Part shown: positions 9,001 through 33,000 of the stretch, piece by piece | Layout: the number at the start of each line of letters is the position of its first letter | Position numbering within the stretch: position 1 is the first letter of the stretch | NCBI RefSeq assembly: GCF_026571515.1 | Contig: NW_026864722.1 | Location: forward strand, 62,001 to 126,000 | Direction of reading: 5' to 3' | Length of the DNA stretch: 64,000 nt | Origin: Ruditapes philippinarum | Lineage: Eukaryota | Program-made: the position numbers

Positions 9001-12000
9001 TACCAAATATGAAGACTGTGGGTTAAAGGAATCTTCAGTAATTGGCCGGACAAGGAAAAATCGACAGACGGCCGGTTGGCAGGACGGTGGGATGGACGAA
9101 CAAGCTGTTTCAAGTACTAGTATACCATCCTTACAACATTATTTGTGCATGGGTTTAATTACTGATTCGCTGTAGATTCGTGAGGACATTATATGCAATC
9201 TACGTTCGGCAAAAGCTTGAATCTGACCATGTCGTGAAGAATTCTGCAATACAGGATCTGCAAGGAAAAATAGAAAACATGACTGCAAAGAAAAACAATG
9301 GTTTTAAAAGTGCTGGTAAATCACACAGCGACGAAACTTCTACCATATCACAAGTCTCCCAGAAGAAGAGAGGTAAGCCTAAAATTTCTGTAACAATGAA
9401 GCTGTTTTTATTCATGTTATATTTATGTTCTTTATTCATATTCAGAAAGTCAATTACACGATTTTAAATAAAGTGGAAAAGTCTATATCGAAAGGGATGT
9501 TATACAGTTAAACCTGTGTTAAAGACCACTTTCAAATAAAAGCCATAATGCAAAAAAGGCCAGTCTTCAGCAACCCTTCATTGATTAAATAGAACATTAT
9601 AACCTCCAAATAAAGGCAACTTATCTATAAAGGTCATGTTTGGTCTCTCCTTTGGATGGCAGGTGTGAGATACAAGATCCCATATTACATATTTTATATA
9701 GCAGATAATGTATTGATCTTGAACAGAATATTATTATTCATCCTACATAAATGTTCATACTGTTCCATTTAGACTTTTATCAACATTTTTTTAAGCAAAG
9801 TTTTATAATAATATCAGTTTGATATATTTCTATTGTTTTCATCAATATTTGAATTACGTATGGAAAATGTTGTAGACCTATCTACTTTCAGTCCATTTTT
9901 TTTATTTTATAAAATCTGAAAAAAAAAGAACTTAAGCGAGTTTAAGTGTATTACATTTCTTAGTTCATACCAATGGCTAGTGCTAGAAAAAGTGCTTTAT
10001 CTTTAAGGTCAACATAAGATGGTGGGAAGAGCAAGCGCCGAAAGCAAGGTTGCATTTTTTGCCTCAGTTACACCCAACCTTGAACATTTGGGTAAAGATC
10101 AAGATATCATATTTGACCACGCTGTTACAAATATTGGTAATGGTTTTCTACCACACAACGGAACATTTGTGGCTCCAGTCTCTGGAACATATGTATTATC
10201 TGTTACATTACTCCACATAGCCGCAACGAATACCTGGGGTCATTTGGTTGTTAATGGATCAGTTGTTGCAAAATTTTATTTCAATAACGGACAATCCTCT
10301 CAGACAGTTATTGTATATCTGAGACAAGGAGAAGACGTTTCAGTACAAAACACAGCGACAGACCGGAAGATAGATGGGGACCGCTACAGCACATTTAGTG
10401 GATTTCTGTTGTATGAAGATTTCTCTGTAAACATTGTTGGCTAAATAAAATTGATTGAACAGTCTTCAGAAATTTATGATATGATAAAACAATACATCAT
10501 TTCTAAATTTTGTTCATTATATAATATTTTTTCTTTCTTTGTTTTTCCCCATGAATTTCGAGTGACGAACAGCAGAATATTTTCTTAGATCGTTTTGGGC
10601 GTACTTAATAGGGGATTAAGATTTTCTCTGTTTGGTTAGTATATATTGTGATGCGCAGGTGCATAGAGAGGGAAAATAAAGTAGGACGTATAAATGGAAA
10701 ACATTAACCAATTAGAGTCAGAATTGCATACATAAAAAAAATAGAATCCCTAAGCTTAAACATGAACAACGTTTACAGTGACAGTGAGTTAAGAGATAAC
10801 AAGAATTATTTAATATTTTATCTAACTATAACGCTCTTCATATATATTGATTTAGTAATTTACTAAAATCAGTTGAATTTCGACCTTTTTGCAGACAGAA
10901 TTCTTGTCTGACAATGGCATTTTCTTCAATGCAATTGATAGTACCATTGTTTTATCTCATGACGTCATCGGATGCTGACAATACTGACAAGCTAGTAACA
11001 GAAAATCGTGATATTGATAAAGAATTTCACGATTTAAAAAAATATGTTTCAACAAAACTTGAAGCTATTTTAGTGGATGCGAGAAAGTGTGACTATACTG
11101 ATTATATGGAATGTCAATTTTTACGTTAATGAATAAACATAAGTTGATTTTGAAAGAGTGATATCATAAGAGGTATCTTGTTAGATCTATCAAGAATGTG
11201 TTACTAATTTAATAAGCATGCTTTTGTTGTAAGTAAACCTATAGCTTTGAACAGTATGCGAAAAGAAATCTCTGTTCATTTATCTATATGTTACACAGGT
11301 TTTCTATGTCAAATGAAATGTCTTTAATTTTTTAAATCTCTTAAATTGACTAAATAGTCAAATGAAATGTTTGATATTTTTATCTACATGTACCATTACT
11401 CTGTTGGCCCCTGGATTCATAAAACCTGCATGGTAGGCGGATAATGTTTAAATGAAAATTGTTCAGCTTGGCATTACATTGTATTTGTGGTATTTTAATT
11501 TCCTTTTATTTGACCTTTTCGAGTTGTGGGGTTCTAGTATACCTATTTTAATAGTGTATAATAACCCTTTGGATATGTTGCCTGCTTTTAAAGATTGTCC
11601 TTTGACATTTCATCCCGTTTTATAAATCCATTTTATTTAGTTTCGCCCATTTTTTTTCTATTACTTGAAAACAATACTTTGTATGTTGTGACATATCACG
11701 AACATTTTACATTGAAGATACAATGATCACTTTCGTATGAATACATCTTTGGAAGTTTCTTTACTACCTTTAAAAATGAACCAGTTTATGTAAAATTGAG
11801 AATTCTGCTTAAGCCGGTGCTAGGGGGTGTTGATAGTAGCTTGCAATTACCACTACCGGTAAGTTCTTATATGACGAGACAGTGTAAATAAAATACTAGT
11901 AAATCGACGCCAAGTGAAATTCTAACTATTGTCATAGTAACATTAGACGAAATAATTAAAACACATAAATTATCATGTAAATATGTACTAAAAGGTACAG

Positions 12001-30000: not shown

Positions 30001-33000
30001 AGATATGACCAGTTATAATTCAGTAAACCTTTTGCTTTTAGAATGCCTAACGCATATTGTTGTATACTTATTAAGAAGCATTAATTTGTAATACCGTGAT
30101 AAAGAATGGAATACAAAATAGTTATAAAATTTATATTTTACAGATATGCTGTTTTAGTTGTACAGACAAAAATGATTTTGTTTCCATGAAGCTATCTTTT
30201 AGAAAATTACTTTTATTCACATTCAAAAAGTGAATAAGTCTATTATGAAAGGGATATAATACAGTTTAACCTTTGTTAAAAACCACTTTCAAATAAAGGC
30301 CGTAATGCAAAAAAAGCAACTCTTCAGCAACCCTTCATTGATTAAATAGAACATGATAACGGCCGAATAAAGGCCAATTGTCTATAAAGGTCACGTTTGA
30401 TCACTGATTTTGGTGGCAGGTATTTGATACTAGATCCCATGTTACATATGCTATAAACAGATAAAATATTGTTCTTGAACAGAATATTATAATAATTATA
30501 CATCATGCATAAAAGTTCCTACTGATTCATTTATAACTTTATCATCATTTTAAGCAATATTTTATAAGAATTATAATTTTATATAATTCTATTGTTTTAT
30601 CAATATTTGAAATACTGATGTAAAATGTCCCATTTTAGACTTACAGATTTTCATTTTATAAAATCTGAAGAAAAATCTTAAGAGAGTTCAAGTGTTTTAC
30701 ATTTCTTAATTAATACCAATGGCTAGTGCTAGAAAAATTGCTTTATGTTTAAGGTCAACATAATATGGTGAAAAGAACAAGCGCCGAAACCAAAGTTGCA
30801 TTTTTTGCCTCAGTTACAACCGACCTTGAACATTTGGGTCAAGACCAAGATATCATATTTGACCACGCTGTTACAAATATTGGTAATGGTTATCTACCAC
30901 ACCACGGAACATTTGTGGCTCCAGTCCCTGGAACGTATGTTTTCTCTGTAACATTACATCACTGGGAAGCAGTGGATACCTGGGGTCATTTTGTTGTTAA
31001 TGGGTCAATTGTTGCAAAATTATATTTGCATAACGGACAATCGTCTCAGACGGTAATTGTCTATCTGAGACGAGGAGAAAACGTTTCAGTACAAAACATA
31101 CATACAGACATGACCATGGGAGGGGACCGCTACAGCACATTTAGTGGATTTCTTTTGTATGAAGATTTCTCTGTAAACAATTTTGTTGGCTAAATAAAAA
31201 AGATTGGACAGTCTTTTCTAAATTTTGAACATGATACCGTAATTATTATATTATCATATTTTCCTTGACTTTCAAATGTCGAATAAAATTTGTTCGTAGT
31301 TCTATAGTTTTCCACATATTTATATTTCCATATATATCATACTATATTTAATTTGATTATGAATATTGTTAAAGGTATCTTACTTTCATTTTAGACTGCA
31401 GACTGCTAAGAATAACTTATAGAAATGTCTTAGTATATCCAGCTTTGACCTTTTTTTGAAAGAAAACTACTTCAGTAAATTAAATTTTGCGACCACTCTT
31501 TTACATATTTTTTTCTACCAAACCTTAAAGTAAGAACTTCAAATAATGTTTTTATAAGTAACAAGATAATGTCATATGACATAGAAACCTACATGTAACT
31601 TTTCATCCAACCTAAATCATTGAAATATGCTATCTTTTAAGATAAATACAGCTGATGTCATGGTACATATATAAAGGTTTGTGGTCTATTTCTTAAGCTA
31701 TTGTCTCGTTTTTACAATTGTATGGGGTGAAAAATGAGTTTACTTCATTCCGCCCTTAATGCTAAGAACAAACAAGTAGCAAATACTTAAATCATTGTAT
31801 TGAGGTGGAAGACGGAATGGGAGTTTCATGCGAAGTTAAAACCCGAATACAAAAACTGAGACAATTTTTCGAAATAATCAAGCGACAATAAGTCATATAA
31901 GCCTGTAGGGAAAAATGATCAATTCACTTTTTTCTTATAAAATTTCTCCAATGCGAATTGAATGAAATATGATTTGAATAAAAGGTCGTGGAGTGTTGTC
32001 GAAAGGTGAAAACAAAACTTGTACAATTGAAATGCTCCTTTTTCCTGTTGTTATTGTTCATTATGAATGCATACTTTTCAAAATTTGACGATATGTGCGA
32101 TAAAATACAGATTCTGATTTGTTTTGTGCTTGGAAGTTAACACTGAATCACTTGAAATCAACTGCATTTAAAGCCTGATTAATGCATTGATTTTTACTGT
32201 ATTGAAACCAACCTTCGTGTATAAAAAGCCAATAGTAATCGGTAAAAATCACATTGACAATGTCAAAAACAAGTTTAACAAAACAAGGTCAAATTTTAGC
32301 TCAAAATATAAACGTTTCCTTGATGTATAAAATCTATAGCTTATAGAATTAAAACGTTATATGTTAACAGAAAGACAAGCTGGCAAATACTTCAATAATT
32401 TATCCCATACCCAATTGTTTAATCTTTTAAAGGAAGGGAGTCCAGTAATTTAATTCTTAGGAAAAAATATCACTATACTTGTGAGTCATATAGTCCAGTA
32501 ATGACCATTTATTTTTAAATATAAAATAAATATTGGGTAGGTAGAGAATAGCACTTTATTCCTAAACACAATACAGTCATGACATTTAAATATTAAGGTT
32601 GACATAACATATATTTCTAACTATGAGTGACGTTTACTTTTTGTTTACTTTGGGTTTAAATTAATTTAAATTAAAAGATTTATTCATTTATTCATTTTCT
32701 CCGTTTGTTTTAAATAAAATTAATCAAATAAACGTCAAAAGGACAAGAGCAGCAGTCCTATTTATCATCCACGTCATCCTTTAAACATGTTAAATATTTA
32801 TATGCAATCAGCGGAGTAAGTCAAATCTACAAGATATTTTTATGATTATACAATATCTTTATACTTGAAAGTCTGTGGCCAAGTTTGTCTTAACTATTGT
32901 AAAGACAGTGTCTATGTATTGTTGTATATATTATCTGAAGTGGGTGTTTAAGTCTTTGTGAGTCTACTAGCAGATGAAAATTATGATGATTTGTCTTGCA

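What the first reader, a model, noticed from the sequence alone, without database searches (positions are those of the whole stretch)
9210..31193. Dead stalks, live heads: a possible cassette reservoir for combinatorial splicing or gene conversion
Seen: units 2, 6 and 7 have lost or frameshifted the stalk exon, yet their head exons (10008, 27100, 30754) are fully open with intact TTTAAG|GT acceptors. Units 2 and 7 carry loop combinations found in no intact gene here. Every stalk-head intron is phase 1 and all units are co-oriented, so any intact stalk donor could join any downstream head in frame (e.g. 4213 to 10008, 19610 to 27100 or 30754). Inference: orphan heads may act as alternative 3' exons or as conversion donors, analogous to pseudogene donors in avian Ig loci. 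Caveat: recent duplication alone could leave heads open, and each head has its own downstream poly(A)-like signals.
Basis: inference. Interest (0 to 1): 0.75.

Follow-up and report, generated by a model that had tools for sequence, protein, structure and literature searches.

The report
Clam C1q gene array with pseudogenes
This is an ordinary tandem cluster of two-exon C1q immune-lectin genes of the Manila clam in which several copies were recently disabled and copies swap sequence, so the open "orphan heads" need no special splicing or cassette mechanism to explain them.

Summary
The described facts hold. Heads at 10008, 27100 and 30754 are open C1q-domain exons with intact TTTAAG|GT acceptors. 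Their stalk exons are truncated (unit 2) or frameshifted (units 6, 7). All introns are phase 1.

The pattern is no more than chance. I count 5 independent stalk lesions against 3 head lesions (P=0.28).

The locus is Ruditapes philippinarum: three RefSeq proteins match window exons at 100%. One of them (P0030) splices unit 2's own stalk remnant to its own head. No stalk/head chimera appeared in three protein searches.

Recency explains the open heads:
- Head 6 lies in a ~3.9-kb tract that copies unit 4/5 sequence at 96-100%, coding and non-coding alike.
- Head 7 is a hybrid formed at the end of that tract.
- Unit 2 has a clean ~1.1-kb deletion.

Exchange between copies is real. Dead unit 5 and intact unit 1 share 153 identical bases across all three variable loops (global P=0.014). 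Its direction is unknown.

Verdict: a birth-and-death C1qDC array with non-allelic recombination. Cross-unit splicing and somatic conversion are untested and unsupported.

The parts
3841..4213 (+). Unit 1 stalk exon (ATG to phase-1 donor): signal peptide plus helical stalk. Intact.
4848..5269 (+). Unit 1 head exon (C1q). Open, but a 23-bp deletion near the 3' end changes the C-terminus to ...LLYLLAK.
5045..5253 (+). Tract shared with dead unit 5 (about 24595-24803). It has 2 mismatches, and none over 5101-5253. It covers the three variable loops.
9210..9372 (+). Unit 2 stalk remnant (3' 54 codons, open) with its own phase-1 donor at 9372. The promoter and 5' half were lost in a ~1,093-bp deletion with junction 9205/9210.
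   Evidence: P0030 residues 1-31 read from 9279
10008..10444 (+). Unit 2 head exon (C1q), open. Equals residues 32-176 of RefSeq protein P0030 at 100%.
10818..11042 (+). Headless stalk 5' fragment: TATA-like box, ATG at 10914, signal peptide. Homology then ends, with a stop at 11127.
15834..16206 (+). Unit 3 stalk exon. Intact, donor in phase 1.
16815..17251 (+). Unit 3 head exon (C1q). Open.
19250..19610 (+). Unit 4 stalk exon. Intact. Equals the N-terminal part of RefSeq protein P0002.
20244..20692 (+). Unit 4 head exon. Equals P0002 residues 121-269 at 100%.
20300..24600 (+). Source copy of the recent ~3.9-kb tract: head 4, its 3' flank, stalk 5, intron 5 and the first ~200 nt of head 5. 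Matches 27158-30960 at 96-100% in most 100-column windows (three intergenic windows 88-92%).
22795..23180 (+). Unit 5 stalk exon, divergent type. Stop at 23149 before the donor; donor 23180 is in phase 2. Dead, and the lesion is shared with unit 7.
23939..24837 (+). Unit 5 head exon, split by a ~458-bp insertion (23999-24456). The acceptor is intact. The 3' part resembles unit 1 and the 3' flank resembles unit 2.
26101..26493 (+). Unit 6 stalk exon. Open for 139 codons, but 1 nt is missing at the A6 run 26452-26457, which puts the donor in phase 0.
27100..27548 (+). Open. Its first ~60 nt are older (about 91% to head 4); the rest is 97-99% identical to head 4.
29609..29998 (+). Unit 7 stalk exon, same divergent type as unit 5. 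A 4-nt insertion near 29686 gives a stop at 29711, on top of the shared older frame break.
30754..31193 (+). Open. It is a hybrid: the 5' ~200 nt copy head 5, 30812-31098 resemble head 3 (93-100%), and the last loop is unique.
33442..34201 (+). Unit 8. Both exons are degenerate: a stop after 18 codons, and the head has lost ~60 nt and gives no Pfam hit.
38154..40105 (+). Unit 9: intact gene outside the finding (stalk 38154-38547, head 39663-40105). Equals RefSeq protein P0003.

Best explanation
The region is part of a tandem, co-oriented array of two-exon genes of the Manila clam (Ruditapes philippinarum). Each gene encodes a secreted C1q-domain protein of the bivalve 'sC1q-like type II' kind. 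Exon 1 encodes a signal peptide and a long helical stalk. Exon 2 encodes the globular C1q head with three hypervariable loops.

The array evolves by birth and death, with unequal crossing-over and gene conversion between copies. The three orphan heads are remnants of copies that were disabled recently.
- Head 6 is a young copy of head 4. It was carried in a ~3.9-kb duplication or conversion tract whose two ends lie inside head exons.
- Head 7 is the hybrid formed at the far end of that tract. Its 3' two thirds probably belonged to the gene that stalk 6 once headed.
- Unit 2 lost its promoter and the 5' half of its stalk in one ~1.1-kb deletion.

The heads are still open because little time has passed, and because exchange with intact copies overwrites parts of dead ones.

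Shown here: the anatomy, the lesions, the recent tract, the mosaicism and the species. Inferred: the order of events, the secreted trimeric lectin function, and the claim that the orphan heads have no present use.
For: IDENTITY
- 7 of 7 heads submitted hit Pfam C1q (E 1.1e-16 to 1.5e-23).
- The head 2 model has mean pLDDT 90.2. Its best PDB fold matches are C1QL1-3, Caprin-2, Cbln1 and C1q B (E 1.5e-12 to 2e-9).
- The stalk model shows a helix at residues 6-21 and a long helix at 29-116, with pLDDT 85-93 over about residues 40-90.

SPECIES AND GENE MODELS
- P0002 residues 121-269 equal 20243-20689 at 100%.
- P0003 equals unit 9.
- P0030 residues 32-176 equal 10007-10441 at 100%.

RECENT TRACT
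- 20300-24600 matches 27158-30960 at 96-100% in most 100-column windows. Stalk 4 and intron 4 against stalk 6 and intron 6 give only 74-96%. The 3' part of head 5 against that of head 7 gives about 85%.
- Mismatch is 3.6% in the intergenic part and 1.5% in intron 5/7, against 2.0% in head 4/6. The head is therefore no better kept than its non-coding neighbours.

MOSAICISM
- 3 of 28 unit pairs have globally significant identical runs: U5-U7 (P=0.0005), U1-U5 (P=0.014) and U4-U6 (P=0.015).

CHANCE OF STAYING OPEN UNDER NEUTRALITY
- About 0.18-0.48 for head 6 with 4-8 substitutions.

LESIONS
- 5 stalk against 3 head, P=0.28.

LITERATURE
- Two-exon type II C1qDC paralogues in tandem, with conserved splice sites and hypervariable selected sites, are described in oyster (PMC6835236, passages and section 2.4 read).
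- A passage of PMC8905726 cites 1589 C1qDC genes for this clam.
Against: - Private framework changes on the four dead heads are 9 synonymous to 11 non-synonymous. That is fewer replacements than strict neutrality predicts (P=0.028). It fits the family's usual constraint (P=0.22) and does not differ from intact heads (3:4, Fisher P=1). So the dead heads have not drifted freely for their whole terminal branch. Recent death explains this, but so would continued use.
- If all lineage-specific changes of heads 2 and 7 came after their stalks died, staying open would be improbable: 0.01-0.15.
- RefSeq models unit 2 as protein-coding (P0030). I could not see what evidence supports that model.
- No expression data were available, so lack of use is inferred and not shown.
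- The intact-looking units 1 and 3 have no protein in the database. I cannot explain this.
Confidence: 0.8

Rival explanations
1. Unit 6 is not dead. The missing base in the A6 run (26452-26457) is an assembly homopolymer error or a segregating null allele. Stalk 6 plus head 6 would then be an ordinary intact gene, and one of the three orphan heads disappears.
For: - It is the only lesion in the unit.
- The stalk frame is open for 139 codons from the ATG, and the donor and acceptor are intact.
- The lost base sits in a homopolymer.
- Head 6 is 97-99% identical to the intact head 4.
Against: - No protein with stalk 6 or head 6 was found. Only P0002 and P0003 carry this stalk type among proteins of 218 residues or more.
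- P0002's cluster has a single member.
- No reads were available to check the run.
Confidence: 0.25
2. Germline reservoir. Dead heads persist as donors of loop sequence to intact genes by meiotic gene conversion, which adds loop diversity to expressed C1q genes over generations. This would be a by-product that may or may not be selected.
For: - Dead unit 5 and intact unit 1 share an identical 153-bp stretch covering all three variable loops, while their flanks are 90% identical or less.
- Unit 5's 3' end equals dead unit 2 over 81 bp.
- An outside protein (P0032) combines unit-3-like first and second loops with a unit-4-like third loop.
- Variable loops have pN/pS 0.89, against 0.24 in the framework.
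Against: - The direction of the unit 1/unit 5 transfer is unknown, and intact-to-dead fits equally well.
- Within the window each head carries its own loop set, and no recombinant set occurs.
- Heads 2, 6 and 7 themselves show no globally significant tract into an intact gene apart from the U4-U6 copy.
Confidence: 0.3
3. Orphan heads are used now, either as alternative 3' exons spliced to upstream intact stalks or as donors in somatic gene conversion in immune cells.
For: - Any phase-1 donor joined to any head acceptor stays in frame.
- All units are co-oriented.
- Framework changes on dead heads are fewer than neutral expectation (P=0.028).
- A mollusc precedent for somatic variants from germline sources exists: snail FREPs (PMC7588048, passage read).
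Against: - No chimeric stalk/head protein was found.
- Head 2 is modelled with its own remnant donor.
- The proposed introns of 5.8, 7.5 and 11.1 kb would have to skip complete heads that have the same acceptor, whereas the normal introns are 606-1115 nt.
- Each unit keeps remains of its own stalk, and most keep their own start region. That marks decayed whole genes, not promoterless cassettes.
- Head 6 is as diverged as the non-coding DNA next to it.
Confidence: 0.04
4. Unit 2 is still a working gene. It would make a truncated protein without a signal peptide, consisting of a short tail and a C1q head, as RefSeq models it (P0030, 176 residues).
For: - P0030 matches the window exactly. It uses an internal ATG at 9279, donor 9372 and acceptor 10008.
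- The stalk remnant is still open.
- In the hard clam, 25% of C1qDC models are C1q-only 'cytoplasmic' forms (PMC8905726 passage).
Against: - The deletion removed the region homologous to the other units' TATA-like box and start region.
- Head 2 has private replacements at residues otherwise invariant among the heads here: Y48F, H52N and F84L.
- The model may rest on homology alone. I could not see its evidence.
Confidence: 0.15

Closest known systems
Tandem clusters of bivalve sC1q-like type II C1qDC genes (for example six paralogues on Crassostrea virginica chromosome 8; PMC6835236, passages and section 2.4 read)
   Same: - Signal peptide, coiled-coil stalk and C-terminal C1q head.
- Two exons with conserved donor and acceptor.
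- Head-to-tail arrays made by unequal crossing-over.
- A conserved framework with a few hypervariable sites.
   Different: - That paper does not contain the words pseudogene, gene conversion or alternative splicing (0 occurrences each).
- Here 5 of 9 units are disabled.
- Here mosaic tracts between copies are statistically supported.
Pseudogene-donor gene conversion at avian immunoglobulin loci (recalled, from no call)
   Same: Co-located, non-functional copies of a variable domain share converted tracts with a functional copy.
   Different: - There, conversion is somatic and programmed, and it runs from pseudogenes into one rearranged gene.
- Here only a germline tract is seen, its direction is unknown, there are several functional genes, and the dead copies are decayed whole genes.
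Somatically diversified FREPs of the snail Biomphalaria glabrata (PMC7588048, one introduction passage read; PMC3313920 and PMC12074976 seen in a search listing only)
   Same: A mollusc lectin-like immune gene family for which gene conversion from germline source sequences is reported.
   Different: - A different domain (fibrinogen and IgSF).
- The evidence there comes from variant genomic DNA and mRNA within single snails.
- No such data exist here.
Variable-exon clusters spliced to shared exons (clustered protocadherins, UGT1A; recalled, from no call)
   Same: An array of similar exons that could in principle join one shared partner in frame.
   Different: - In those clusters each variable exon is a 5' exon with its own promoter, joined to shared 3' exons.
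- Here the proposal needs upstream stalks to skip complete, competent heads.
- No chimeric product was found.
'cghC1q' models: C1q-only proteins without a signal peptide (25% of Mercenaria C1qDC; PMC8905726 passage)
   Same: RefSeq's P0030 for unit 2 is of this kind: a C1q head with a short tail and no signal peptide.
   Different: Here the anatomy shows that the form arose by deletion of the 5' half of a secreted type II gene. That suggests, by inference, that some such models elsewhere are truncated copies.

Membership tests
Bivalve sC1q-like type II C1qDC | C-terminal globular C1q domain | tested here: met
   - Pfam PF00386 on 7 of 7 heads submitted.
- 38 PDB sequences matched by the profile.
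- Model pLDDT 90.2, with C1q-family fold matches.
Bivalve sC1q-like type II C1qDC | N-terminal signal peptide | tested here: inconclusive
   - Hydrophobic start MAFTSPVI..LVTSSVA followed by DNSD, by inspection.
- Modelled as helix 6-21 at low confidence.
- No signal-peptide predictor was available.
Bivalve sC1q-like type II C1qDC | Coiled-coil region between signal peptide and C1q | tested here: inconclusive
   - One long helix at residues 29-116, pLDDT 85-93 over about 40-90.
- No coiled-coil predictor or oligomer test was run.
- Pfam gives only a sub-threshold DUF16 hit.
Bivalve sC1q-like type II C1qDC | Two-exon gene in a tandem array of paralogues with conserved splice sites | tested here: met
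   - Phase-1 donors and the TTTAAG|GT acceptor occur in every unit.
- RefSeq proteins match both exons at 100%.
- There are nine co-oriented units.
Pseudogene-donor conversion system (avian Ig type) | Converted tracts shared between non-functional copies and a functional gene | tested here: inconclusive
   - One germline tract between dead unit 5 and intact unit 1 (global P=0.014; 0 mismatches in 153 bp).
- Its direction is unknown.
Pseudogene-donor conversion system (avian Ig type) | Conversion is somatic, in immune cells, and one-directional into the expressed gene | not testable with these tools
   This needs somatic against germline DNA from one animal.
Pseudogene-donor conversion system (avian Ig type) | Donors are promoterless, leaderless domain cassettes | tested here: not met
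   - Units 6 and 7 keep an ATG, a signal-peptide coding region and a stalk.
- Unit 2 keeps a stalk remnant, a donor and an intron.
- These are decayed whole genes.
Alternative 3' exon or cassette splicing cluster | Products joining one shared 5' exon to different downstream exons | tested here: not met
   - No chimeric protein: 28 hits, 42 hits and 2 hits, each stalk with its own head.
- This is weak evidence, because protein sets rarely hold rare isoforms and no RNA data were searched.
Alternative 3' exon or cassette splicing cluster | No competing complete terminal exon between donor and distal acceptor | tested here: not met
   - Donor 4213 must skip head 1 to reach 10008.
- Donor 19610 must skip head 4 (and units 5 and 6) to reach 27100 or 30754.
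- The acceptors are alike.

The most novel reading that the evidence does not exclude
The orphan heads are in use today. Haemocytes or other tissues would either splice intact upstream stalks onto heads 2, 6 or 7, or copy their loop sequences somatically into expressed units. That would give a bivalve a combinatorial C1q receptor repertoire built from pseudogene cassettes. The evidence does not exclude this. The frames and phases allow it. Dead heads show fewer framework replacements than neutrality predicts (P=0.028). One dead/intact loop tract exists.
Probability: 0.04. Interest if true: 0.85.

Novelty: new member of a known kind. Interest (0 to 1): 0.2.

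Why it matters
If the mundane reading holds, the value is practical.
- It gives a worked example of how bivalve C1qDC arrays turn over: duplication or conversion tracts that begin and end inside head exons, hybrid heads, and quick loss of stalks or heads.
- It warns that C1q-only, signal-less gene models in clam annotations can be truncated copies (inference from unit 2 and P0030).
- It documents sequence exchange between a dead and an intact copy across all three variable loops. 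That is a plausible, but unproven, evolutionary source of loop diversity.

Only the unsupported reading (present-day cross-unit splicing or somatic conversion) would bear on the open question of whether invertebrates diversify immune receptors somatically.

Tried and rejected
Not pursued.
- Poly(A) hexamers after each head: present, but at the window's chance density of 2.17 per 600 nt. Uninformative.
- Rescue donors for units 5, 6 and 7: I scanned only the pattern G|GT[AG][AG]. No phase-1 candidate lies before the stop. Weaker donors were not scored.
- Direction of the unit 1/unit 5 transfer: flanks on both sides give no polarity.
- Branch-specific selection: the counts are too small to separate recent death from continued use.
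- Loop shuffling inside the window: none. Each head has its own loop set.
- Nature of the 458-bp insertion in head 5: no second copy in the window. It has only 6-nt inverted ends by eye and weak internal repeats. It is left unnamed.
- Not run:
  - Complex prediction (no binding claim is made).
  - The search of protein representatives and the protein-atlas search (the family is known).
  - Genome contigs (it holds bacteria and archaea only).
The gene lists and figures S5-S7 of PMC8905726, and the gene tables of the Manila clam genome papers, may bear on how units here are annotated.
- Spliced models were searched exon by exon. Whether exact full-length proteins of units 1 and 3 exist therefore stayed unchecked.

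Full report
WHAT IS THERE

The window has no N. Between about 3.5 and 40 kb it holds nine co-oriented (+) repeats of a two-exon unit.
  - 7 of 7 heads submitted hit Pfam PF00386 (E 1.1e-16 to 1.5e-23).
  - A profile of 40 sequences matched 38 PDB sequences of the C1q family.
  - A model of head 2 reached mean pLDDT 90.2. Its best solved-structure matches are C1QL1-3, Caprin-2, Cbln1 and C1q B.
- The upstream exon (the 'stalk') starts with a hydrophobic leader and continues as one long helix. The model shows helix 29-116, with pLDDT 85-93 over about residues 40-90.
- This is the architecture called sC1q-like type II in bivalves (PMC6835236, passages and section 2.4 read).

SPECIES AND EXISTING ANNOTATION

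I searched exon by exon and never joined exons.
- Head 2 against longer proteins gave 28 hits.
- Head 7 against proteins of similar length gave 42 hits.
- Stalk 3 against longer proteins gave 2 hits.
- Three RefSeq proteins of Ruditapes philippinarum, all from one 240,098-bp contig, match the window exactly:
  - P0002 (269 aa) is U4, stalk plus head.
  - P0003 (278 aa) is U9.
  - P0030 (176 aa) is U2. It starts at an internal ATG (9279) of the truncated stalk and uses U2's own donor 9372 and own head.
- No protein combines one unit's stalk with another unit's head.
- I found no protein for U1, U3, U5, U6 or U7. For the intact-looking U1 and U3 this is unexplained.

CHECKING THE OBSERVATION

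What holds:
- Acceptors of the form TTTAAG|GT sit at all eight recognisable heads. The scan gave 9 matches in the first 42 kb, one of them unrelated.
- Donors at 4213, 9372, 16206, 19610 and 38547 are phase 1.
- U2 lost a stretch equivalent to U4 18355-19447 in one clean deletion.
- U6 lacks one base in what is now an A6 run, so its donor is in phase 0.
- U7 has a 4-nt insertion early in the stalk.
- U7 also shares with U5 an older frame-breaking length change before the donor.

- U5's head is split by a ~458-bp insertion.
- U1's head has a 23-bp 3' deletion.
- U8 is degenerate in both exons.
- A headless stalk fragment lies at 10818-11042.

Counting independent lesions gives 5 in stalks and 3 in heads. 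That is no excess for their sizes (P=0.28).

WHY THE HEADS ARE OPEN

- A global alignment of U4+U5 against U6+U7 shows a core at 96-100% in most 100-column windows, with three intergenic windows at 88-92% (20300-24600 against 27158-30960). It runs from just inside head 4/6 to about 200 nt into head 5/7.
- Outside that core, stalk and intron 4/6 are 74-96% identical and the 3' parts of heads 5/7 about 85%.
- Inside the core, non-coding mismatch is 1.5-3.6% and head 4/6 mismatch is 2.0% (8 of 393). Head 6 is therefore a young copy, kept no better than the DNA around it.
- Both ends of the tract lie in head exons. This points to non-allelic recombination between heads.
- Head 6 (first ~60 nt older) and head 7 (5' third from head 5, remainder head-3-like) are the hybrid junctions.
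- By inference, stalk 6 and the 3' part of head 7 once formed one gene, which this event split.
- Under neutral change, the chance that head 6 stays open is about 0.18-0.48.
- For heads 2 and 7 the chance is 0.01-0.15, but only if all their private changes came after the stalk lesions. That need not be so.

EXCHANGE BETWEEN COPIES

- A sliding nearest-neighbour scan shows pervasive mosaicism.
- I ran a permutation test in the manner of GENECONV on 1044 ungapped columns with 433 polymorphic sites and 2000 permutations. It found 3 of 28 pairs globally significant:
  - U5-U7: run of 101 sites, P=0.0005.
  - U1-U5: run of 66 sites, P=0.014.
  - U4-U6: run of 65 sites, P=0.015.
- The U1-U5 tract joins an intact and a dead unit. 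It has no mismatch over 5101-5253 and covers all three variable loops. Its direction cannot be told.
- Dead units thus have parts of their heads overwritten by sequence shared with intact ones. This also helps keep frames open.

SELECTION

- Pairwise dN/dS among heads is 0.25-0.73 (28 pairs).
- Framework pN/pS is 0.24 and variable-loop pN/pS is 0.89. This matches the known pattern of the family.
- Private framework changes:
  - Dead heads: 9 synonymous to 11 non-synonymous. That is below neutral expectation (P=0.028) and consistent with the family's constraint (P=0.22).
  - Intact heads: 3 to 4 (Fisher P=1 against the dead heads).
It is equally expected if the lesions are recent, and the counts are small.
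- Dead heads do carry replacements at residues otherwise invariant here: S60P and D114N in head 7, D32Y and S89L in head 5, and Y48F, H52N and F84L in head 2.

THE INTERPRETATION

- In-frame cross-unit joining is arithmetically possible. It is a trivial consequence of tandem duplication of one gene.
- It would need introns of 5.8-11.1 kb that skip complete heads with the same acceptor, against normal introns of 606-1115 nt.
- I found no product of that kind. Protein sets are a weak test, and no RNA data could be searched.
- The orphan units are decayed whole genes. They are not promoterless cassettes.
- Somatic conversion cannot be tested here.

LITERATURE

- Tandem duplication, conserved two-exon structure and hypervariable sites of bivalve C1qDC genes are in print (PMC6835236).
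- A passage of PMC8905726 cites 1589 C1qDC genes for this clam and reports 25% C1q-only models in the hard clam.
- A search for 'C1qDC' with 'gene conversion' found 2 papers, neither about bivalve C1qDC conversion.
- A search on C1q domain, bivalve, pseudogene and somatic diversification found nothing on this point.
- The snail FREP precedent was read as one passage.
- Supplements were closed.

VERDICT

This is an ordinary birth-and-death C1qDC array, with recent non-allelic recombination and several young pseudogenes. The reservoir idea survives only as a generic, undirected germline exchange.

Noticed in passing
window 10818-11127: A headless stalk, the mirror image of an orphan head. It has a TATA-like box, an ATG at 10914, a signal peptide and about 45 homologous codons. 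Homology then ends, with a stop at 11127. It lies ~370 bp after head 2.
   Followed up: partly
window 7671-8842 (array about 7473-9054): A satellite of ~143-bp period, about 8 copies at 68% match. It sits between two pieces of upstream-flank homology (6903-7112 and 9157-9205) just before truncated unit 2.
   Followed up: partly
window 3841-5269 and 15834-17251: Units 1 and 3 look intact, apart from unit 1's 23-bp 3' deletion. Yet no protein for them appeared in any of the three protein searches, while truncated unit 2 has a RefSeq protein.
   Followed up: partly
window 44993-47493 and 52349-53542: Two units of a second, more distant stalk-plus-C1q subfamily on the same strand. The first head matches only positions 1-83 of 127 of the C1q model. 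The second looks whole.
   Followed up: partly
window 56333-60299, minus strand: Exons of a major-facilitator transporter (Pfam MFS_1, E 9.8e-22). The array ends before it.
   Followed up: partly
window 35371-35751: An open frame of 126 codons with a weak helix-turn-helix hit below Pfam's cut-off (HTH_58, 19.5 bits against 23.8). It may be a transposase remnant between units 8 and 9.
   Followed up: partly
window 43369-43839, minus strand: An open frame of 156 codons made of a repeated peptide of roughly 13-14 residues rich in M, L, T, C and Q. No Pfam hit.
   Followed up: no
proteins P0029 and P0032 (unnamed JGI contigs of 1398 and 1468 bp): Close relatives of the heads (up to 91% and 90% to head 3). 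P0032 combines head-3-like first and second loops with a head-4-like third loop. That combination is absent from the window and hints at loop shuffling among copies elsewhere.
   Followed up: partly
window 19250-19610: The intact stalk 4 is itself a mosaic. Its 5' part is 99-100% identical to stalk 3 (19297-19421). Its 3' part shares a 12-nt deletion and 92% identity with the remnant of dead unit 2.
   Followed up: partly
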